Shown piece by piece: positions 20,102 to 28,857 of a stretch of 64,000 bases of DNA; within the stretch, counting starts at the first letter, position 1; every line of letters begins with the position of its first letter. Where the stretch lies: the IMG/VR virus record IMGVR_UViG_3300034126_000020, positions 32,001 to 96,000 of that record. One strand, 5' to 3'. This stretch comes from a virus (Duplodnaviria; Caudoviricetes). Position numbers and translations under genes: made by a program. Under the pieces are notes generated by a model. The model was not told where the DNA came from. It saw only the letters and a program-made list of their open reading frames with translations, and searched no databases.

Positions 20102-20556
20102 CAGTAGGTCTTCTTCGGCAGGATGTTGTTGACATTGATGTGGTCGCCGTACTCACGCAGTTGCGTGTAGATGTAGCCGACGGCTTTGTGGTCATCGTCG
20201 AGGATCAGGAGCATCAGGCCTTGTTGTTCCTCAGGCGTGAGTTCCTGGATGACGTGGACTTCGTGGTTGTCGAAGTGACCGATCAGGGAGTTGACTTGAT
20301 CAGTACGCTTGAAGTGATCCGGGTTGGTGATAGCGCCTTCAGGCAGGTCGTACAAGTACTGACCAATACCCGGTGTCACACCCAGAGCATAGCGGTAATG
20401 CTCCGAGCGTGCAGCGGCCAGCAACACCATCGAGCGGACCGTGTCGACCACCATGGACTGGATACCCCAGCCCAATGCCTTGTTGTGATCCGGAGCCTTG
20501 GCAACGGCTTCAGTCACGGTGAGGGGGTGATCGAACATGATCATTTCATTGCTCAT
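20101..20556 (-). CDS. Hypothetical protein
   Basis: 151-aa ORF overlapping the ligase stop. Confidence 0.7.
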   Translation of the reverse strand: MSNEMIMFDHPLTVTEAVAKAPDHNKALGWGIQSMVVDTVRSMVLLAAARSEHYRYALGVTPGIGQYLYDLPEGAITNPDHFKRTDQVNSLIGHFDNHEVHVIQELTPEEQQGLMLLILDDDHKAVGYIYTQLREYGDHINVNNILPKKTY

Positions 20557-22579
20557 TGGTTTCTCCAGTTGCGGTGAGACCGTTATCGGTCGTCAGGATC
20601 GTGGTAAGGGAGTTGGGGTTGGTGAACTTGATCCCATCTTGGATGAAATGAAGTTCTTTGGCCTTCTTGACTTTGTCAGGTCCGGCACCTACGCCCGCAT
20701 AGAGGATGTCGGTGTTCTTGCTGACAGACTTCGTCAACTTACCACCCCGTGAGATCACGTCATCTTCCATTGCGCGTCGTGTCAAACCATCGAAGTCCGA
20801 CCCACTGACGACAACTGTCTTGCCAGCCAGGTCTTGGATCTCAGCTTTCGGGATCACCACATCGGTGTACGTAAAGACGGAGTCCAGAGCGTGCAGGTCA
20901 ACGTCGTTAGCAACGTAGGTCAGCATGATGCTTGTTGCTACCGCTGGGCCAACGTCGTCCACTTCCTGCAACGTCTTGAAGCTAGCCTTACCCAAGTCAC
21001 GGAAAGATGGGAATCGAGCTGCCAGAGCCCTTGCAGTGCTGTCCCCGACATCCGGGATGCCTACCGCGCGCAGCGCTTTGTAGAACGGCAGCTTCTTGCA
21101 ACGGTTCAGACCGGCGATGATCTTGTCCGTCATGGCTTCACCCAAGCCAGCGGCGTAGAAGTCCTGCTCACCCAAGTAGAACAATGAGCTGAACGACCCC
21201 AAAGACCCGACAGCAATCAAGGACTCGACCGCAGCAGGGCCAAGGTTCTTGACATCGATGCCATCACGGCTCACGAAGTACGCCATCCGGTTGATAAGCT
21301 GGGCCGGACAGTTGATCAGGTTGGTGCAGAACAGCTTCACCCCTTCTTCTTTGCCCACATCCCGCTTGGTCACCTTGGAACCACAGCACGGACACTCGGT
21401 CGGTGTGTGAATCAGACCGTGTTGATCCGTGCGCAGTGCCAGCACCACGCTTTCGATCTTCGGAATCACGTCACCACGACGAGAAACCACAACGGTGTCA
21501 CCGATCCGCAGGCCTAGACGCTCGATCTCTTCGAAGTTGTGCAGTGTGACACTGGAGATCGTGACCCCACAGAGCTTCACTGGACGAATCTTCGCTACTG
21601 GAGTCAACACCCCAGTCCGACCCACCTGCACATCCACACTTTCCAGCACGGTTGTGGCTGTCTGAGCCTCGAACTTGTACGCTGTCGCCCAACGAGGGGA
21701 GGTAGAGCGCTGTCCAAGGGTCTGACGTTCAGCAGGTTTGATGAGTTTGATCACCAAGCCGTCGATGTCGTGCCCTAAGTTCGGTCTGTCTTCGGTCACT
21801 TCTTCGATTGTCTCGATGATGTTACCGATGTCACTGGTCAACCCTTCCCAAACCGGCAAAGAGATGAAGAACTGAGACTGAACTTCCTCGCTGAAGAAGG
21901 ACATGGGCACTGAGATCGGTCCGGCAGCAGTATGGATGACCGCATCGTAGGCAATGAAACGAATTCCCATGCCTTGAAGCTGCGCACCTTCCTTCTTCCG
22001 GGCCAAACCGGCCACCATGTTGCGTGGATTGGCGTACACCTTCTTGCCCTGCGCTTCACGCAGCTCACAAACACGTTTAAAGTGCTTGTGTGGCACTACG
22101 GCTTCACCGCGGATCTCCACTTTGCCATCGTAACCCTTGAGTTCTTCTGGCACACCTTCGAAGTACACGGCATTTTCAGTGATGTCATCACCAATGTCGC
22201 CATCGCCACGGGTAGCGGCGTACTTCAGCTTGGTTTTGTTGTACAGCAAGCCAATTGCAAGGCCATCGTGCTTGAGTTCCATCTGCGCATACGCAGCATA
22301 ACCCAAACCGAGGCACCAATCTGTCAACTCTTCCTCGTTATAGACGTTACCGAGGCTGAGCATGGGCGTCAGGTGTTTGATCTTCTCAAACCCACCGTCA
22401 GAAACGGCCCCGACTTGGTTCAACGGCGACAACGGGTCGTCGGTTTCCCCTTCCAGCTCACGCAACTCAGCTTTGAGGGAGTTGTAGACTTCATCATCAA
22501 CGTCTGACTCCCCCTCGTTGTAGTAGAGGTGGTTCAGACGACTGATCTCTGCTCGCAGAGCTTCGATACGGTTGTCCAT
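20546..22579 (-). CDS. ligA: NAD-dependent DNA ligase
   Basis: HLTPMLSLGN, adenylation motif ELKHDG, EIRGE, NPRN, DIDGLVIK, PRWATAYKF, VGRTG, Cys4 zinc finger, HhH repeats and a BRCT tail. Confidence 0.97.
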   Translation of the reverse strand: MDNRIEALRAEISRLNHLYYNEGESDVDDEVYNSLKAELRELEGETDDPLSPLNQVGAVSDGGFEKIKHLTPMLSLGNVYNEEELTDWCLGLGYAAYAQMELKHDGLAIGLLYNKTKLKYAATRGDGDIGDDITENAVYFEGVPEELKGYDGKVEIRGEAVVPHKHFKRVCELREAQGKKVYANPRNMVAGLARKKEGAQLQGMGIRFIAYDAVIHTAAGPISVPMSFFSEEVQSQFFISLPVWEGLTSDIGNIIETIEEVTEDRPNLGHDIDGLVIKLIKPAERQTLGQRSTSPRWATAYKFEAQTATTVLESVDVQVGRTGVLTPVAKIRPVKLCGVTISSVTLHNFEEIERLGLRIGDTVVVSRRGDVIPKIESVVLALRTDQHGLIHTPTECPCCGSKVTKRDVGKEEGVKLFCTNLINCPAQLINRMAYFVSRDGIDVKNLGPAAVESLIAVGSLGSFSSLFYLGEQDFYAAGLGEAMTDKIIAGLNRCKKLPFYKALRAVGIPDVGDSTARALAARFPSFRDLGKASFKTLQEVDDVGPAVATSIMLTYVANDVDLHALDSVFTYTDVVIPKAEIQDLAGKTVVVSGSDFDGLTRRAMEDDVISRGGKLTKSVSKNTDILYAGVGAGPDKVKKAKELHFIQDGIKFTNPNSLTTILTTDNGLTATGETNEQ

Positions 22580-22593
22580 GGTTGACTCCTAAC

Positions 22594-23046
22594 TTACTTC
22601 GGGCTTACCAGCAAGCGAGCCAGTTGGAATACGCGCCGACCCTTTGTAGGATCGCCACGCTCGATGTCGACACTGAGGGCTACCAGCCGCGGAGACGTTA
22701 ACAGGTCATTGTTGACATGGCGTCCACCGTTGTAGTGCACCCTCCCATGTAATACCCAATGTTCATTTTCCTTTACAAACTCGATCGGCTGGAAGAGACC
22801 GATCTGCTTGGACTTCAGGTAACTGTAGATGTCACCGACACCCGAATTGCCCCAGTTACGCTTAGGCCAAGAAGAAAAGATAGGCAGGAAGTCATCCGGC
22901 ATCAACCGGCGGACCTCCTCATCACTCAACGACTCACAGCCTGGCACAACGACGCAGGTAATACTGTCGTGAGCAGGTGCGCTGTTGAATCGATCATGGG
23001 CATCAAAGATGGTGATCTCCTCGAACAGCTTTATTTGTCCCGTCAT
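22594..23046 (-). CDS. Hypothetical protein
   Basis: ATGA overlap with the upstream stop fixes the start at 23046. Confidence 0.65.
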   Translation of the reverse strand: MTGQIKLFEEITIFDAHDRFNSAPAHDSITCVVVPGCESLSDEEVRRLMPDDFLPIFSSWPKRNWGNSGVGDIYSYLKSKQIGLFQPIEFVKENEHWVLHGRVHYNGGRHVNNDLLTSPRLVALSVDIERGDPTKGRRVFQLARLLVSPK

Positions 23047-23393
23047 TTGATGTCTCTGGGGTTGAGGCACAGATAGTCCGTCTCACAACTCTCCTTGACT
23101 TGTTTCAGGAGCGCTGCACGGGCCTTCTTAGCTTTGATCGGATACTCGAACAACCGGATCTCAGCATCCTTGGCGTAAAGCCCGTTAAGGAGCTTACAGG
23201 GATGCTTACCGATGGCGAGCAAGGAAAGTTGTTTGTCTACTTCAGATGAAACGTTCTCGCTTTGGCCCAGATAGAAACGCCCAGTCGCTACATGCTCTAA
23301 CATGTAGCAACCTTGGTTAGTGGTATCGCTTCGTTTACTGCGGCCCGAGGAGGAGTGTAGCCATTTGACAACATTCACCAGGGCGTCAGTCAT
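23043..23393 (-). CDS. GIY-YIG-like domain protein, probably catalytically degenerate
   Basis: GCYMLEH..TGRFYLGQSENV...GKH; the conserved Arg after YxG is replaced by Glu. Confidence 0.55.
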   Translation of the reverse strand: MTDALVNVVKWLHSSSGRSKRSDTTNQGCYMLEHVATGRFYLGQSENVSSEVDKQLSLLAIGKHPCKLLNGLYAKDAEIRLFEYPIKAKKARAALLKQVKESCETDYLCLNPRDIK

Positions 23394-24920: not shown

Positions 24921-25331
24921 TCAACGACGATAGCCAAGATCGGCGTGTGGATCATCTTTCTCTGCCAAGCCTTCAAACACATTGCTGAAGCCTACTGGCA
25001 TGGAGGACTTCAACACCCGGACCTCGTCGTGACTGGGTTTAGGACGGGACATGAGCTTCTTCATCCAGTCCACGTTGAACCCGATGAACTCACGCTTGCC
25101 TTTGACCGAGAGTACGCCACGACGGACATTGAACCGGTTGGCGTAGCTCTTCATGTTTTCAACGGGACCGTTCAGGACAGCGATGAAGACCTCGTTCTCC
25201 AAGTCCGGCATGAGCAGATGAGGCAGGGCTTCGATCAGGTGGGTCTCGGTGATCCCTAACCCAGCAGCAATCGTTAACGCCTCGTCTTCAGAGTCGGCAA
25301 TGATGATACTGATACCGTTTTCATTACGCAT
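24921..25331 (-). CDS. Hypothetical protein
   Basis: AGGAG RBS before MRNENG at 25331. Confidence 0.65.
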   Translation of the reverse strand: MRNENGISIIIADSEDEALTIAAGLGITETHLIEALPHLLMPDLENEVFIAVLNGPVENMKSYANRFNVRRGVLSVKGKREFIGFNVDWMKKLMSRPKPSHDEVRVLKSSMPVGFSNVFEGLAEKDDPHADLGYRR

Positions 25332-25367
25332 TAGATTAACTCCTGAGAAATGTCTATCGGCATAAAT

Positions 25368-25510
25368 GGGCAGCATGAGTTTGAGCCCATGCTGCCCGGT
25401 ACAGGCGCCGTTGAAACGTATGCTACTGGCTCCCGCCGATGCTAAACCGTTTCGGGTTAAGCGTGTGCTGGATCACCCCCTCACTAGACAGAATCTACTG
25501 CCTGTACATA
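25368..25510 (-). ncRNA. Putative small structured RNA with its own promoter motif and terminator
   Basis: 8-bp closing stem GTACAGGC/GCCTGTAC (25399-25406 with 25500-25507) enclosing hairpins; TTGTATGTA at the 5' end; 10-bp terminator hairpin at 25368-25397. Confidence 0.45.
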
Positions 25511-25749
25511 CAATAGGATCGCCCTTATTAGTTTTTGGTTACGAGGGTAATGTATCGTTTGAGTAAAATCAAATCCACTATAAACAGGGGATACAGGCCA
25601 AGGCCTGTATCCCTTCCTTATTTGCTTTGTATCTTTTATAGATACCCCTAGGTATCCGAGGCAGCCAAATGATGTGTAGCTGCTCTCTTTATCTCATCTT
25701 GATTTATTGAGTGTCAGCCGCTCTTTAAATCCACTTCGGGTACCAAGAC

Positions 25750-26265
25750 ATGTCTGACATTTCCCTGCTTTCCAAGGACCAAGTACTTGCCTTGGTCAAC
25801 GAGCAAAACCCGGGTCTCAACCTGACGCATGAGAAAGTCACTTTCGGTGATCCTGTCGCAGCGTCTGGTGAAAACCCGGAACGTAACACTGAACTGGTCC
25901 TGACCGGTATTCCAGGCAAGGGCTTCAAGAACACGTCCACCATCCTCTACAACCGGATCGATCTGGCCCAGTTCGAAGTCCAGATCCCGTCGCAGATCCA
26001 AGTAGAAGGTGACGTCACCATCCAATCCATTCTGGATGGTTTCAACCTGTTCTACGGGGCCAACCTGCAACTGAACGACGTGCGTAGCGACCTCACGTTG
26101 CCAGGCGATCTGACCAGCACTCCTGAAGACTTCACCTTGATCGCTGCGGCAGGCTCGTACGCTTATCGCGGTCAGGTGGTCATCAGCATCCAGATGGCTG
26201 ACCAAGATCTGAACGCTGCTATCACCAAGAAAGTCCTGGATGGCTTGACGCTCTCCCTGAGCTAA
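25750..26265 (+). CDS. Virion/tail structural protein, paralog family (N-domain only)
   Basis: Shared motif LVNEQN..FGDP...NTE.....Y.RIDL. Confidence 0.75.
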   Translation: MSDISLLSKDQVLALVNEQNPGLNLTHEKVTFGDPVAASGENPERNTELVLTGIPGKGFKNTSTILYNRIDLAQFEVQIPSQIQVEGDVTIQSILDGFNLFYGANLQLNDVRSDLTLPGDLTSTPEDFTLIAAAGSYAYRGQVVISIQMADQDLNAAITKKVLDGLTLSLS

Positions 26266-26343
26266 TGGTGCTGGTAGTTGACCAGAACGCGCACTGGGGC
26301 TCTCGGGTCCCAGTGGCATTAGTCTCTTAACCGGGAAAGAATC

Positions 26344-27183
26344 ATGTCAATCTACAGTCAGTCGCCCGACCAGATGGTGCGCGAACTGATCAACAATGCC
26401 AACACCCCACTCGTACCCTTTTCTCCTCAGAACTTGACCTTCGGTAAACCGGCCATCGTGACGGGCAACCCTTTGGTCAACGCTACGGTGAATGTACGAG
26501 GTATCCAGGGTGAGGTCTACGCTGGTCAGCTTGCAATTTCGTACAACCGACTGGACCTTAGCGTCCTGTTCCGCGGTAACTACCGCCCAGAATTCACGGC
26601 ATTGGGTCAGTCGACTCTCTACCGTCTATTGCCTGAGATCAACAAGGCCCTCGGCCTGAACTTGACACAAAACGACTTGACTGACGTTGACCTCAAGTTG
26701 TTGGAAGAAGGTGATCAGGTCAACCTTGAACTACGTGCTAAGCCTGAGTCGTTGGCATTCACGGGTCTGGCCACTATTCTGTTCAACCGTCGTCAACTGA
26801 TGCTGACAGACGTTGTAGCAGTTGAGGCGTATGACGAGTTCAAACATGCCGACCCAGTCCTTGAGGGTTACCTCAGTGCTGGCTTGCTGACGTGGGGCCA
26901 GGATTTCACGATCATCGCCCAGTACCTGAAAGTGAACCGTTACGGCAACAACTACAAAGGTAGCTGGATCGACGAAGCCGGGCTCAGAGCAGGCCTGGCT
27001 CAGTATTTCGGCATCGAGAATTGGCCGAGGATCGACACGAGTGCAAACTCCAAGATGACGATCAGGGATTACGCCACGAAAGATCACCCGGATGCCAACC
27101 GTAACTACCAGCGGGTGGTGGTTCAAACCAGCCTGCGCAGCGACGGTTACTCCGGTACTGCTTTCTTCCACTATAACGCCTGA
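26344..27183 (+). CDS. Virion/tail structural protein, paralog family
   Basis: LINNAN..FGKP..YNRLDL..LF N-domain and C-terminal P.AN..Y.RVVV....G..FFHY. Confidence 0.8.
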   Translation: MSIYSQSPDQMVRELINNANTPLVPFSPQNLTFGKPAIVTGNPLVNATVNVRGIQGEVYAGQLAISYNRLDLSVLFRGNYRPEFTALGQSTLYRLLPEINKALGLNLTQNDLTDVDLKLLEEGDQVNLELRAKPESLAFTGLATILFNRRQLMLTDVVAVEAYDEFKHADPVLEGYLSAGLLTWGQDFTIIAQYLKVNRYGNNYKGSWIDEAGLRAGLAQYFGIENWPRIDTSANSKMTIRDYATKDHPDANRNYQRVVVQTSLRSDGYSGTAFFHYNA

Positions 27184-27196
27184 TCGGAGATGACCC

Positions 27197-28045
27197 ATGT
27201 CTCTTTATAAGAACCCCGTCACGACGCTTTTGAACGTCGTCGGGAGTTACAACGGGATCACGCTTGATCCGGCTGACTTCGATTTCATTGATCCTCGGCC
27301 GAACACCAGCGGAAAGCATCCTGAGCAAAACTCCATCGTTACCATCAAGGCCAACAACGCCTTTGCCCCTTATCAGGGCGAGACGGAAGTCTACTACGTC
27401 CGTCTGGACTTGGCAGACCTTGAGAAGCTGGTCACGATGACCATGAAAGCCCCAAGCGTCACCAACTCCCATGACATCCTGCCTTTCCTGAATGACCGTT
27501 TCGGTCTGAACCTGGAAGAGTCGGATCTGGAACTGGTTGATGCCGTGGACCATGTCGACTACAAGACCGTCCAGTTGACGGCTGTGCCTGGTAGCCTGGG
27601 GTGGATCGGCACCGTGTCTGTTTCGGTGGCGCAGGGTGACATTCCTCTGACCACGTACCTGACAGTGACGGCCCTCAACGGTCTGAACTACCCAACGCCG
27701 TACGCTACGCTGCCGTTTGCGCAGATGTACAGCTACTGGCGTGACTTCTCAGCCCACGTGAATTACCTGAAGACCATCACGGTCGGTCAGGCGATCCCAC
27801 AAGAGCTGGCTGACATCCTCTCCAGCGTCACTGGTGATGCGTGGTTCCTTTCGGGCTACCATGAGTTCAGTCTGGGTAGAGCGCAGGTCATTTGGGCCGG
27901 TAAGGCGGTTGACAACGGCCTGATGAACCCATCGTACGGTTACGGTATTCAGGTTCGCCTGAACCATGACGATGCGTTCGGTATCACTGGCGACCTGATC
28001 ATCCACTTCAGCGATCCGGTAGACCCGTTCGCCGAACCTACGTGA
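27197..28045 (+). CDS. Virion/tail structural protein, paralog family
   Basis: Same N-domain (Y.GETEVYYVRLDL) and L.GLNYP linker. Confidence 0.8.
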   Translation: MSLYKNPVTTLLNVVGSYNGITLDPADFDFIDPRPNTSGKHPEQNSIVTIKANNAFAPYQGETEVYYVRLDLADLEKLVTMTMKAPSVTNSHDILPFLNDRFGLNLEESDLELVDAVDHVDYKTVQLTAVPGSLGWIGTVSVSVAQGDIPLTTYLTVTALNGLNYPTPYATLPFAQMYSYWRDFSAHVNYLKTITVGQAIPQELADILSSVTGDAWFLSGYHEFSLGRAQVIWAGKAVDNGLMNPSYGYGIQVRLNHDDAFGITGDLIIHFSDPVDPFAEPT

Positions 28046-28053
28046 GGTGAGTC

Positions 28054-28857
28054 ATGGACGGACGTGATCTGATTATCCAGATGGTCAACGAACAGAACAC
28101 TCTGTATCGTCCGATTACTCTGGACAACGTGGCAATGTCGCTGCCTGTGAAGAAAGGGCAGAACGATCCCCGCAACACAGGGGTGACGCTCAACGGGGTG
28201 CACGGTAAAGGCTACAAAGGTCAGACGGAGATCTTCTACAACCGCCATGACCTGCCAGAGCTGTTTGATGAAGCGGGCATTACGCCTAACCTTCGTCACA
28301 ATGCCGAGATCACCCCGGCATGGATCATTGATAAGTTGAACAGCAAGTACGGCCTGTACCTTGAGGCCACCGACCTGAACAACATCGATGTCCCCATCTT
28401 CGACCAATTGGAAACCACCAAGCCCATCGAGATCGTCGTCAAAGACAACTCGTGGAACTGGGTCGGTACCATTACCCTCGAAATGACCTTCGGTAACCCA
28501 TTACTGGAAACCGTGGTCTTGGTACAGCTTCTTCCTGTGCTGGAACACCCAGTAGAGTTCAAGGAGCTTCGAGGTCGAAAGTCCGGGTACATGTGCACGT
28601 ACAACTTCGACTTCACAGCCTACAAAGCTGACCTGCAACGTGATCCAAAGAATGGCCGTTGGGCTAACTTCGACTTGGTCATGGCGGCAGGGGCTAAAGC
28701 AGGCTTGCCCGCATGGGGTAATGCAGGCGGGATCGTTGACCTTCCAACCAGTGCTGTGCCAAGTGCCAACCCCAAGTTCCAACGGGTGATGGTTCAGAGC
28801 TACGCCACAGGTTCTGTGATGGGTCCGATCTTATTCCACTACGACCTGGACTGGTGA
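28054..28857 (+). CDS. Virion/tail structural protein, paralog family
   Basis: RNTGV....YKGQTEIFYNRHDL; C-terminal PSANPKFQRVMV...LFHY. Confidence 0.8.
   Translation: MDGRDLIIQMVNEQNTLYRPITLDNVAMSLPVKKGQNDPRNTGVTLNGVHGKGYKGQTEIFYNRHDLPELFDEAGITPNLRHNAEITPAWIIDKLNSKYGLYLEATDLNNIDVPIFDQLETTKPIEIVVKDNSWNWVGTITLEMTFGNPLLETVVLVQLLPVLEHPVEFKELRGRKSGYMCTYNFDFTAYKADLQRDPKNGRWANFDLVMAAGAKAGLPAWGNAGGIVDLPTSAVPSANPKFQRVMVQSYATGSVMGPILFHYDLDW

What the first reader, a model, noticed from the sequence alone, without database searches (positions are those of the whole stretch)
25358..25554. Second stand-alone structured small RNA unit at the strand-switch point
Seen: between the last minus-strand gene and the tail operon is a complete mini-unit with no ORF. 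It has TACATTAC (25547-25554) and TTGTATGTA (25505-25513), then a roughly 109-nt element closed by GTACAGGC/GCCTGTAC with internal hairpins (GCT-T-AACC-CGAAAC-GGTT-T-AGC; TAGA-TTCTG-TCTA), then a 10-bp terminator hairpin and TTTATGCCG. It shares its 5' motif with the large RNA candidate. Inference: an sRNA, decoy RNA or small ribozyme; the two RNAs could be parts of one system.
Basis: partly seen in the sequence, partly recalled or inferred. Interest (0 to 1): 0.6.

Follow-up and report, generated by a model that had tools for sequence, protein, structure and literature searches.

The report
Jumbo-phage RNA complementary to 16S tail
The gap holds a real, conserved gene for a roughly 149-base folded non-coding RNA, shared by phiKZ-type nucleus-forming giant phages, whose only invariant unpaired stretch is the near-exact complement of the last 15-21 bases of the host's 16S ribosomal RNA, so it most likely binds the small ribosomal subunit where messenger RNAs normally dock.

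Summary
The unit is real. On the minus strand a TATG motif places +1 at 25507. A 109-nt core (25399-25507) follows, then a 10-bp terminator hairpin and a TTTATGCCG tail, giving about 149 nt.

Homologues occur in pPa_SNUABM_DT01, phiKZ/PA7, PhiPA3, PA1C, 201phi2-1, Viktualia, Psa21-like phages and about 20 IMG/VR jumbo contigs. It is single-copy in this genome and has no Rfam match. In 201phi2-1 a published, in-vivo validated terminator (TTS 229,201) falls on the same tail motif.

Covariation supports P1, a P2 hairpin, and a P3/P4 arm with a 4-5-nt loop that is GNRA in most members: 18 of 23 pairs change on both sides, 0/500 shuffles reach this.

New result: the invariant junction UGAGGGGGUGAUCCAGC (25467-25483) complements the 3' end of Pseudomonas 16S rRNA. 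The tract is 15-21 contiguous pairs, -31 to -37 kcal/mol, against -9 for AGGAGG. Substitutions inside it keep pairing. No conserved small ORF follows.

Best reading (about 0.55): a stand-alone RNA that pairs with the anti-Shine-Dalgarno tail of 30S subunits. The closest precedent is the rreB small mRNA, which does carry an ORF.

Caveats: nothing is shown experimentally, Burkholderia phage FLC9 has a degraded motif, and phage genes themselves use SD sites.

First-stage notes flagged look-alike units in another genome (e1-5707370, e1-5707378).

The parts
25547..25554 (-). TACATTAC, a possible early-type promoter-like motif about 40 nt upstream of +1. Related units carry CCCTACATTGT at the same place.
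   Evidence: Read directly and recurs in group-B homologues. It is not enriched in the window, so its function is unproven.
25507..25510 (-). TATG late-promoter-type motif. G25507 is the predicted +1 and the first base of P1.
   Evidence: The sequence CCTATTGTATG is conserved in all DT01/window-type homologues. phiKZ late promoters have consensus TATG with the G as start site (PMC4666361). No TSS was mapped for this phage.
25399..25507 (-). 109-nt structured core of the RNA: P1, P2, junction, P3/P4 arm, junction, P1'.
   Evidence: Covariance-model hit of 131.7 bits, single copy in the genome.
25502..25507 (-). P1 5' strand (RNA nt 1-6, GUACAG). It pairs with 25399-25404.
   Evidence: All 6 pairs change on both sides across the family, e.g. 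CCAAG/CUUGG, GUCAAG/CUUGAC, AAGAA/UUCUU.
25487..25501 (-). P2 hairpin (RNA nt 7-21, GCAGU-AGAU-UCUGUC).
   Evidence: 3 of 5 pairs show compensatory changes, e.g. GUACU/AGUAC in L010. The chimallivirus-type copies have a longer P2.
25467..25483 (-). Invariant junction UGAGGGGGUGAUCCAGC (RNA nt 25-41). It is the complement of the 3'-terminal 17 nt of Pseudomonas 16S rRNA.
   Evidence: 17 contiguous pairs (2 G.U) reaching the last base of 16S, -31.1 kcal/mol. The 16S end was verified. This is the second-best site among about 554,000 positions of the phage genome.
25413..25453 (-). P3/P4 arm (RNA nt 55-95). P3 is GAAACG/CGUUUC, followed by an internal loop, a 2-bp extension, and P4 CGGC-GGGA-GCC(A)G with a GNRA loop.
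   Evidence: The arm folds into a closely similar shape by MFE in 14 of 14 homologues. P3 covaries: GGAAC/GUUCC, GAUAC/GUAUC, GGUAC/GUACC, GGGGU/ACCCC. P4 covaries: GAC/GUC, UGUC/GACA, UUUGC/GCAAA, UUAGC/GCUAA.
25399..25404 (-). P1 3' strand (RNA nt 104-109, CUGUAC).
25368..25397 (-). Terminator hairpin: 10-bp stem GGGCAGCAUG/CAUGCUGCCC.
   Evidence: The stem sequence differs but stays paired in homologues, e.g. GACCCACGUG/CACGUGGGUC in DT01.
25358..25367 (-). Terminator tail AUUUAUGCCG. The predicted 3' end is near 25359.
   Evidence: TTTATGCCG occurs 14 times in the genome against 1.9 expected. In 201phi2-1 the mapped, in-vivo validated TTS 229,201 is the second C of the same motif behind the homologous RNA.
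24921..25331 (-). Downstream 136-aa gene of unknown function (RBS AGGAG, ATG at 25331). It is a neighbour, not part of the RNA.
   Evidence: No Pfam or PHROG hit. It is unrelated to the gene downstream of the DT01 copy.

Best explanation
This is the gene for a stand-alone, roughly 149-nt non-coding RNA, 25507 to about 25359 on the minus strand. It belongs to a family conserved in nucleus-forming (chimallin-encoding) jumbo phages of Pseudomonas and relatives.

How it is made (inferred). The phage non-virion RNA polymerase would start at the G of a TATG late-type motif. This is inferred from phiKZ. Transcription ends at a hairpin followed by UUUAUGCC; that end is shown for the 201phi2-1 homologue and inferred here.

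Fold (supported by covariation). A closing helix P1, a hairpin P2, and a P3/P4 arm whose tip carries a 4-5-nt loop (GNRA in most members) together form a scaffold. The scaffold holds one invariant junction between P2 and P3.

The junction (shown by sequence). UGAGGGGGUGAUCCAGC can form 17 contiguous base pairs with the 3' tail of host 16S rRNA, ...GCUGGAUCACCUCCUUA-3'. That is the whole anti-Shine-Dalgarno tail down to the last nucleotide. Across the family the tract is 15-21 pairs.

Proposed mechanism (inferred, not shown). After leaving the phage nucleus the RNA docks on 30S subunits as an extreme, non-translatable Shine-Dalgarno mimic and occupies the anti-SD tail.

Most likely consequence (weakest step, roughly one in three). 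It acts as a high-affinity decoy that takes a share of 30S subunits out of SD-dependent initiation late in infection. It could equally cap the 16S 3' end against 3' exonucleases or tether subunits.
For: Real and conserved:
- 89% identity to DT01 confined to the element, with unrelated flanking genes.
- Homologues in phiKZ/PA7, PhiPA3, PA1C, 201phi2-1, Viktualia, Psa21-like phages and about 20 IMG/VR jumbo contigs.
- Single copy in its own genome.

Structure:
- 93.8% of cells paired against 75.8% in shuffles.
- 18 of 23 pairs changed on both sides; covariation score 0.485 against 0.149, 0/500 shuffles; slid controls no higher than 0.078.
- The P3/P4 arm is recovered by independent MFE folding in 14 of 14 sequences.

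Stand-alone unit:
- TATG with the G as TSS in phiKZ (PMC4666361).
- TTS 229,201 of 201phi2-1, with termination efficiency above 99% and validation in vivo, falls on the conserved UUUAUGCC of the homologue.
- In PA1C the RNA lies between two genes of the opposite strand.

16S complementarity:
- The 29-nt 16S end GGGGAACCUGCGGCUGGAUCACCUCCUUA is exact in about 40 Pseudomonas records among the 120 rows returned (listed). In P. putida it ends at position 1533 of 1533 of the SSU model.
- All 17 lineage representatives except FLC9 give 15-21 contiguous pairs, -31 to -37 kcal/mol, against -9.2 for AGGAGG.
- In the 17 representatives (FLC9 aside), substitutions at the central position and immediately 3' of CCAG keep pairing. 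The centre is G or A opposite U (GGGGG or GGAGG). The base after CCAG is C or U opposite G. The two bases 5' of the core are A and G/A opposite U in 15-16 of the 17.
- The site ranks second of about 554,000 genome positions.

Non-coding: no conserved start codon or peptide follows the motif.

Precedent: the rreB RNA, with a 17-nt complement to the 16S 3' end, co-sediments with 30S subunits (PMC5711450).
Against: - No expression, binding or phenotype data exist for this phage.
- Predicted accessibility of the motif is only moderate: mean unpaired probability 0.31-0.53, not clearly above the rest of the RNA.
- In the most distant relative, Burkholderia phage FLC9, the scaffold is kept but the motif is degraded to GAGAGGGUGCUCC. 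By hand alignment that gives 11 of 13 pairs with two mismatches. So the scaffold can persist without the full complement.
- The phage's own genes use SD sites: 51% of first-ATG ORFs on the main coding strand have an SD-like 4-mer, against 9% at random positions. A global anti-SD block would therefore also hurt the phage.
- Overexpressed rreB did not slow growth, because ribosomes far outnumber it.
- The RNA is made inside the phage nucleus, which excludes ribosomes, and would have to be exported.
- The P. aeruginosa 16S end itself was not among the rows shown. Its identity with the other Pseudomonas species is from my own knowledge.
Confidence: 0.55

Rival explanations
1. It is a structured phage ncRNA whose invariant junction serves something other than 16S pairing. 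Candidates are a protein-binding site, a tertiary or pseudoknot element of the fold, or a seed against an mRNA. On this reading the 16S complementarity is a by-product.
For: - FLC9 keeps the scaffold but not the motif.
- The motif is only moderately accessible in silico, and G-rich stretches can pair with the conserved CCC before P3.
- An 11-12-nt complement to the motif (AGCUGGAUCACC) sits in the nuclear-shell (chimallin) mRNA of this phage and its relatives.
Against: - 13 of the 14 invariant nucleotides match the 16S-tail complement and the 14th is a G.U-compatible change.
- The match extends through variable flanks to the last 16S nucleotide in most lineages.
- Substitutions in and next to the core are pairing-preserving transitions.
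- The chimallin match comes from the codons of a conserved SWIT(S) peptide. It loses the CCUCC part in DT01 and two of the three IMG/VR relatives compared (TCC to AGC).
Confidence: 0.22
2. It is a cis-acting leader (riboswitch, attenuator or ribosome stand-by site) that controls the gene downstream through the terminator.
For: - In the window, DT01, phiKZ, PhiPA3 and 201phi2-1 a gene follows on the same strand.
- The terminator is about 30 nt before that gene's start codon in the window.
- Published ONT-cappable-seq work classes many such short units as 5'UTR-derived.
Against: - The downstream genes are unrelated between phages.
- In PA1C the next gene is on the opposite strand.
- The terminator of the 201phi2-1 copy was chosen by the authors for termination efficiency above 99% and was strong in a reporter.
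- Terminator sequences vary freely while the core is fixed, and I saw no conserved anti-terminator pairing (by eye).
- Transcription happens inside the phage nucleus, away from ribosomes (established for chimalliviruses; chimallin found).
- No Rfam riboswitch matches.
Confidence: 0.1
3. It is a small mRNA of the rreB type: the long SD drives or throttles translation of a tiny unrecognised ORF.
For: The size (about 150-210 nt) and the 15-21-nt complement to the 16S 3' end are the same as in rreB/rreR.
Against: - Where rreB has its GUG start (right after ...UGAUCCA), this family has GCA, GCC, GCU or GUC.
- The only start-like codon shared by all members is an AUC inside the motif, 2 nt from the SD core.
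- The resulting reading frames are 3 to at least 50 codons long (frames were read over 50 codons only) and share only the first two or three residues, which are fixed by the motif.
- The region after the motif is constrained as RNA helices, not as codons.
Confidence: 0.05
4. It is a chance palindrome-rich spacer with no function.
For: The single-sequence fold z-score is modest (-2.4).
Against: Conservation across at least eight phage lineages with compensatory changes and an invariant 14-mer.
Confidence: 0.01

Closest known systems
rreB / rreR small mRNAs of alpha-proteobacteria (Hahn et al. 2016, RNA Biol, PMC5711450)
   Same: - A transcript of about 165 nt with its own promoter and terminator.
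- A 16-17-nt perfect complement to the 3' end of 16S rRNA that spans the whole single-stranded tail.
- Shown to co-sediment with 30S subunits. The physiological role is still unknown.
   Different: - rreB is chromosomal and carries a conserved 14-18-aa ORF whose GUG start overlaps the end of the complement. The phage RNA has no start codon there and no conserved peptide.
- The phage RNA has a larger scaffold supported by covariation (P1, P2, P3/P4 with a GNRA-type loop).
- No sequence relationship was seen or expected.
- rreB's complement extends 5' of the SD. The phage RNA's extends 3' into helix 45 as well.
Ordinary Shine-Dalgarno sequences of mRNAs
   Same: The same pairing partner (the CCUCC tail of 16S) and the same polarity.
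   Different: - 15-21 pairs against 4-9, and about -31 to -37 kcal/mol against about -9.
- No start codon follows.
- It would act in trans from a non-coding scaffold.
6S RNA (decoy of RNA polymerase holoenzyme)
   Same: The concept only: a stable structured RNA that mimics the normal nucleic-acid ligand of a central machine and so occupies it.
   Different: Different machine, fold and family. No homology. This comparison rests on my own knowledge, not on a test.
Short 5'UTR-type ncRNA candidates of phiKZ and 201phi2-1 from ONT-cappable-seq (PMC10914365, PMC11512511)
   Same: The same phages and the same architecture: a promoter followed within 250 nt by a strong terminator. The terminator behind the 201phi2-1 homologue (TTS 229,201) is one they mapped and validated.
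   Different: - Their main texts do not describe this locus, its fold or its 16S complementarity.
- The conserved sRNA they highlight (sRNA005 / sRNAgp182) is a different locus.
- Their supplementary tables were not available to me, so the RNA may be listed there without a name.
Protein routes to the same site: RMF, ribosomal protein bS21 (also phage-encoded), and synthetic oligonucleotides against the 16S 3' end
   Same: They target or mask the anti-SD region to change initiation (own knowledge; bS21/anti-SD sequestration in PMC7797042 appeared but was not read).
   Different: These are proteins or artificial oligonucleotides, not a natural viral RNA.

Membership tests
Any Rfam 15 family (riboswitches, ribozymes, known sRNAs) | A covariance-model match at gathering score, or at least a suggestive E-value. 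| tested here: not met
   No hit in the whole window at gathering score. At E<=10 in 25200-25800 there is only a 14-bit chance hit elsewhere in the gap.
rreB/rre-type small RNAs with extended SD | At least 16 nt of contiguous complementarity to the 3' end of the host's 16S rRNA. | tested here: met
   17 pairs in the window RNA and 15-21 across the family. The 16S end was verified.
rreB/rre-type small RNAs with extended SD | A conserved small ORF whose start codon directly follows or overlaps the complementarity region. | tested here: not met
   No canonical or near-cognate start at a usable spacing is shared, and no peptide is conserved.
rreB/rre-type small RNAs with extended SD | Physical association with 30S subunits. 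| not testable with these tools
   Needs gradients or binding assays. Shown only for rreB itself.
Riboswitch or transcription attenuator | A conserved aptamer coupled to an expression platform with mutually exclusive terminator and anti-terminator pairing. | tested here: not met
   Terminator stems vary freely in sequence while the core is fixed. I found no conserved alternative pairing by eye. The 201phi2-1 terminator has efficiency above 99%.
Riboswitch or transcription attenuator | A consistent functional class of downstream genes on the same strand. | tested here: not met
   The downstream genes are unrelated. In PA1C the next gene is on the opposite strand.
Chimallivirus late transcription unit (nvRNAP promoter plus conserved terminator motif) | A TATG with the G as start site. 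| tested here: inconclusive
   TATG is present and conserved, with its G as the first base of P1, in the window/DT01-type copies. The phiKZ-type copies have TATAG instead. The consensus is from PMC4666361. No TSS data exist for this phage.
Chimallivirus late transcription unit (nvRNAP promoter plus conserved terminator motif) | A hairpin followed by the phage's conserved UUUAUGCC terminator tail. | tested here: met
   Present at 25358-25397. The motif is 7-fold enriched in the genome. A mapped TTS falls on the same motif in 201phi2-1.
Chimalliviridae (host genome of the RNA) | Encodes the nuclear shell protein chimallin. | tested here: met
   A 636-aa protein at G000 164696-166606 (minus strand) matches phrog_4795 'nuclear shell protein' at 1.7e-59. 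Orthologues of 78-88% identity occur in DT01 and three IMG/VR relatives.

The most novel reading that the evidence does not exclude
A virus-encoded antisense RNA is aimed at the ribosome itself. On this reading, nucleus-forming jumbo phages, including the model phage phiKZ, make a scaffolded RNA that pairs with the entire single-stranded 3' tail of host 16S rRNA, and in some members a few bases of helix 45 as well. It would thereby cap, park, tether or silence 30S subunits. That would be the first natural trans-acting 'anti-anti-Shine-Dalgarno' riboregulator, and a new layer of ribosome takeover alongside the known phage proteins.
Probability: 0.45. Interest if true: 0.9.

Novelty: new variant of a known kind. 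Interest (0 to 1): 0.8.

Why it matters
If the RNA binds 30S subunits, giant phages that wall off their DNA in a nucleus also reach out to the host's ribosomes with an RNA, not only with proteins. The hypothesis is directly testable in phiKZ, PhiPA3 and 201phi2-1. All three are laboratory models with gradient, antisense-knockdown and cryo-EM methods already in use.

It would also give a function-bearing example for the many unnamed short transcripts seen in jumbo-phage transcriptomes. It would give the enigmatic rreB-type RNAs a viral counterpart. And it would offer a natural, compact 30S-binding RNA scaffold for synthetic biology.

Even if the ribosome link fails, this is a new, widely conserved structured RNA family absent from Rfam. 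Several genome records currently cover it with spurious small protein annotations.

Tried and rejected
- Rfam: whole window at gathering score and the gap at E<=10 gave nothing relevant. There are no tRNA or tmRNA genes in the window.
- Riboswitch reading: I started from this because the layout is promoter, folded leader, terminator, RBS. I dropped it because the downstream genes differ, PA1C has no downstream gene on that strand, and the terminator is constitutively strong.
- Chimallin mRNA as the true target: the best 16S-tail complement in the genome lies antisense inside the nuclear-shell gene. The shared 14-mer comes from the codons for S-W-I-T-S. DT01 and two of the three IMG/VR relatives compared use AGC for the last Ser, which breaks the match. 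I judged it a coincidence.
- Enterobacterial variant: a scan for GGGGGTGATCCAACC, which would fit the E. coli-type 16S end, found 16 contigs. None was above 200 kb and none matched the model. So there is no host-matched covariation test across genera.
- MAFFT-only alignments mis-register P3 and P1 between subgroups. RNAalifold on them recovers little. I used a covariance-model alignment and separate arm folds instead.
- TACATTAC as a shared or enriched promoter motif: not enriched.
- Supplementary tables of the two ONT-cappable-seq papers are not held. Ceyssens 2014 is not held.
- Literature searches for a phage RNA complementary to the anti-SD found none. They did find rreB.
Full report
**What is there.**
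All elements below are on the minus strand.
- TACATTAC lies at 25554-25547.
- TTGTATG lies at 25513-25507.
- A 109-nt stretch at 25507-25399 is closed by GUACAGGC/GCCUGUAC.
- One linker base follows, then a hairpin with a 10-bp stem at 25397-25368.
- The tail AUUUAUGCCG lies at 25367-25358.
- About 20 nt further on come an AGGAG ribosome-binding site and the ATG (25331) of a 136-aa gene of unknown function.

The unit therefore sits in a divergent gap. On one side is a minus-strand operon: the 136-aa gene, a 249-aa gene, an endonuclease and an NAD-dependent DNA ligase. On the other is a plus-strand array of paralogous DUF7941 virion proteins. The window is part of a 276,810-bp phage genome with terminal repeats. 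That genome encodes a nuclear shell protein, chimallin, so it is a phiKZ-like nucleus-forming jumbo phage.

**Transcription unit.**
- phiKZ late promoters have the consensus TATG, with the G as the start site (PMC4666361).
- Here and in all close homologues the conserved CCTATTGTATG puts that G exactly on the first base of P1.
- The tail TTTATGCCG occurs 14 times in the genome against 1.9 expected. It is the phage's general terminator tail.
- In 201phi2-1, ONT-cappable-seq mapped a terminator at 229,201. The authors chose it for termination efficiency above 99% and validated it in vivo (PMC11512511).
- That position is the second C of the same TTTATGCC, directly behind the homologous RNA.
- By analogy the RNA here ends near 25359 and is about 149 nt long. 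The start is inferred. The end rests on a homologue.

**Family.**
- A BLAST search of 1.4 kb around the site hit only the element itself, at 89% identity, in Pseudomonas phage pPa_SNUABM_DT01. There it lies between unrelated genes under a spurious 40-aa CDS on the other strand.
- Pattern scans of IMG/VR, further BLAST searches and a covariance model built here found copies in many other genomes:
  - about a dozen IMG/VR contigs, most of 250-277 kb;
  - PhiPA3, PA1C and relatives;
  - phiKZ, and the identical PA7;
  - 201phi2-1 and Viktualia;
  - two 320-kb contigs;
  - a 269-kb contig (L220);
  - a Psa21/D6-like 305-kb contig (L248);
  - a group of contigs, three of them 310-315 kb, related to Burkholderia phage FLC9.
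- It is single-copy in this genome.
- In PA1C it lies between two genes of the opposite strand. It is therefore a gene in its own right and not merely a leader.
- In the phiKZ-type phages it neighbours the gp203-like SNF2/DarB helicase. Elsewhere the neighbours differ.

**Fold.**
MAFFT alignments mis-register the subgroups. I therefore built a model from seven close sequences with a hand-set structure and let it align 17 matches.

| Measure | Observed | Control |
|---|---|---|
| Cells forming a standard pair | 93.8% | 75.8% in shuffles |
| Pairs changed on both sides | 18 of 23 | - |
| Covariation score | 0.485 | 0.149 in shuffles (0/500 reach it) |
| Covariation score, partner slid 1-3 columns | - | 0.078 or less |

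The alignment was fitted to the model, which favours the structure. As an independent check I folded the P3/P4 arm of each of 14 sequences alone, and a closely similar shape came back every time. Examples of compensation:
- P3: GAAACG/CGUUUC (window), GGAAC/GUUCC (DT01), GAUAC/GUAUC (PhiPA3), GGUAC/GUACC (201phi2-1), GGGGU/ACCCC (phiKZ), GGUC-GC/GCGACC (group B).
- P4: CGGC/GCCG, CGAC/GUCG, UGUC/GACA, UUUGC/GCAAA, UUAGC/GCUAA.
- The P4 loop is mostly GNRA (GGGA, GAGA, GUGA). A few members have GGGAA or GAGAA, and phiKZ has CAGGA.
- P1: GUACAG/CUGUAC, CCAAG/CUUGG, GUCAAG/CUUGAC, AAGAA/UUCUU.

**The invariant junction.**
Between P2 and P3 lies the one long stretch that never varies among the GGGGG-type members: GGGGGUGAUCCAGC, or U at the last position in phiKZ. 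It is the complement of the 3' end of bacterial 16S rRNA.
- Verification of the 16S end:
  - The 29-mer GGGGAACCTGCGGCTGGATCACCTCCTTA is exact in many Pseudomonas genomes.
  - In P. putida it ends at position 1533 of 1533 of the Rfam SSU model.
- Extent of pairing:
  - The window RNA (nt 25-41, 25483-25467) can form 17 contiguous pairs, two of them G.U. These reach the very last base of 16S, at -31.1 kcal/mol.
  - Across 17 lineage representatives the tract is 15-21 pairs and -31 to -37 kcal/mol, against -9.2 for AGGAGG.
  - In phiKZ it runs 21 nt into the 3' strand of helix 45.
- Pattern of substitutions. In the 17 representatives (FLC9 aside), changes at the central position and just 3' of CCAG keep pairing with a fixed partner:
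  - The central base is G, or A in L220 and L248, opposite U.
  - The base after CCAG is C or U opposite G.
  - The two bases 5' of the core are A and G/A opposite U in 15-16 of the 17.
- Rank in the genome:
  - In a scan of both strands of the 277-kb genome this site ranks second of about 554,000 positions.
  - The third-best site is 5 kcal/mol weaker.
  - The top site lies antisense in the chimallin gene. It is explained by the codons of a conserved SWITS peptide. DT01 and two of the three IMG/VR relatives compared lose it through a synonymous Ser codon.

**What it is not.**
- It matches no Rfam family.
- It is not a small mRNA. No start codon at a workable distance is shared and no peptide is conserved.
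- A riboswitch or attenuator reading is unlikely:
  - The downstream genes are unrelated, and absent on that strand in PA1C.
  - The terminator is strong.
  - Terminator stems drift freely without a conserved alternative pairing.
  - Transcription in these phages takes place inside a ribosome-free nucleus.

**Mechanism.**
- Shown:
  - a conserved fold supported by covariation;
  - a terminator, shown in a homologue;
  - an invariant 16S-tail complement.
- Supported by precedent: the rreB RNA of Bradyrhizobium carries a 17-nt complement to the 16S 3' end. It co-sediments with 30S subunits, and that binding depends on the extension (PMC5711450).
- Inferred: the phage RNA binds the anti-SD tail of 30S subunits in trans, as a non-translatable super-Shine-Dalgarno held by a scaffold.
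- The consequence is open. My first choice is a high-affinity decoy that withdraws part of the 30S pool from SD-dependent initiation late in infection. Capping the 16S 3' end against 3' exonucleases is an alternative, since most members pair to the terminal base. Tethering subunits is another.
- Points against a global block:
  - The phage's own genes use SD sites (51% against 9% background).
  - rreB overexpression had no growth effect.
  - Predicted accessibility is only 0.31-0.53.
- A further caveat is Burkholderia phage FLC9. Its scaffold is clearly homologous, but the motif reads GAGAGGGUGCUCC, an interrupted complement. Its metagenomic relatives keep the perfect 15-mer.

**Novelty.**
I found no description of this RNA, its fold or its 16S complementarity.
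- The phiKZ and 201phi2-1 transcriptome papers discuss other loci in their main texts.
- Their supplementary lists were not available, so the transcript may be listed there unnamed.
- The hallmark, a long 16S-tail complement in a small transcript, has a precedent in rreB. I therefore rate it a new variant of a known kind.
- It is a new structured family, non-coding, viral, and present in the main model jumbo phages.
- First-stage notes of this scan flagged look-alike units in another genome (e1-5707370, e1-5707378). They did not note the 16S link.

Noticed in passing
G000:C1:164696-166606 (minus strand; outside the window, locus L152:297-2207): The nuclear shell protein (chimallin) gene; phrog_4795, 1.7e-59. 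Its mRNA contains GCUGGAUCACCUCC, identical to 14 nt of the 16S 3' tail. This comes from the codons of a conserved DNSWITSLL peptide. DT01 and two of the three IMG/VR relatives compared use AGC for the Ser, so the full match is not conserved.
   Followed up: yes
L290:400-520 (Burkholderia phage FLC9, LC667451.1 about 308,200-308,320, minus strand): This is the most distant homologue of the RNA. P2, the P4 hairpin and the AAAACCUAUAUUACUA junction are kept, but the 16S-complementary motif is degraded to GAGAGGGUGCUCC. Its uncultured relatives (L019, L021, L023-L025) keep GGGGGUGAUCCAGCC. It is worth comparing with the Burkholderia 16S 3' end.
   Followed up: partly
L001:2968-3090 (DT01 PA10_00263); L031:1017-1106 (Viktualia CDS0006): Short 'hypothetical protein' CDSs of 29-40 aa are annotated over the RNA gene: opposite strand in DT01, same strand in Viktualia. 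These are very likely mis-annotations. HPP-Temi, phiHQ, HHBS36_1 and PS119XW also list hypothetical proteins under the match.
   Followed up: partly
window 25586-25615: A perfect 11-13-bp palindromic hairpin (GGGGATACAGGCC AAGG CCTGTATCCC) lies in the same divergent gap. Both strands score as terminator-like. It sits upstream of both divergent units and its role is unknown.
   Followed up: no
window 25750-28857 (+): At least four consecutive paralogous virion structural proteins of family DUF7941 / phrog_1037 (171, 279, 282 and 267 aa) start the plus-strand operon.
   Followed up: partly
window 20546-22579 (-) and 23043-23393 (-): An NAD-dependent DNA ligase (phrog_3869, 2.5e-172) and a small endonuclease (phrog_13862) lie in the operon downstream of the RNA.
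   Followed up: no
L029:1395-1402 (phiKZ) and L248 equivalent: In phiKZ-type phages a TATATTAC early-promoter-like motif sits between the RNA's terminator and the next gene (PHIKZ204). That gene therefore has its own promoter, which again argues that the RNA is a separate unit. The promoter consensus is from my own knowledge.
   Followed up: no
PhiPA3 L014:1586-1660; phiKZ L029:1328-1400; 201phi2-1 L015:1586-1646: phiKZ-type copies carry an extra hairpin between P1 and the terminator (for example CCGACCUCU-AGAU-AGGGGUCGG in phiKZ). The window/DT01-type copies lack it.
   Followed up: no
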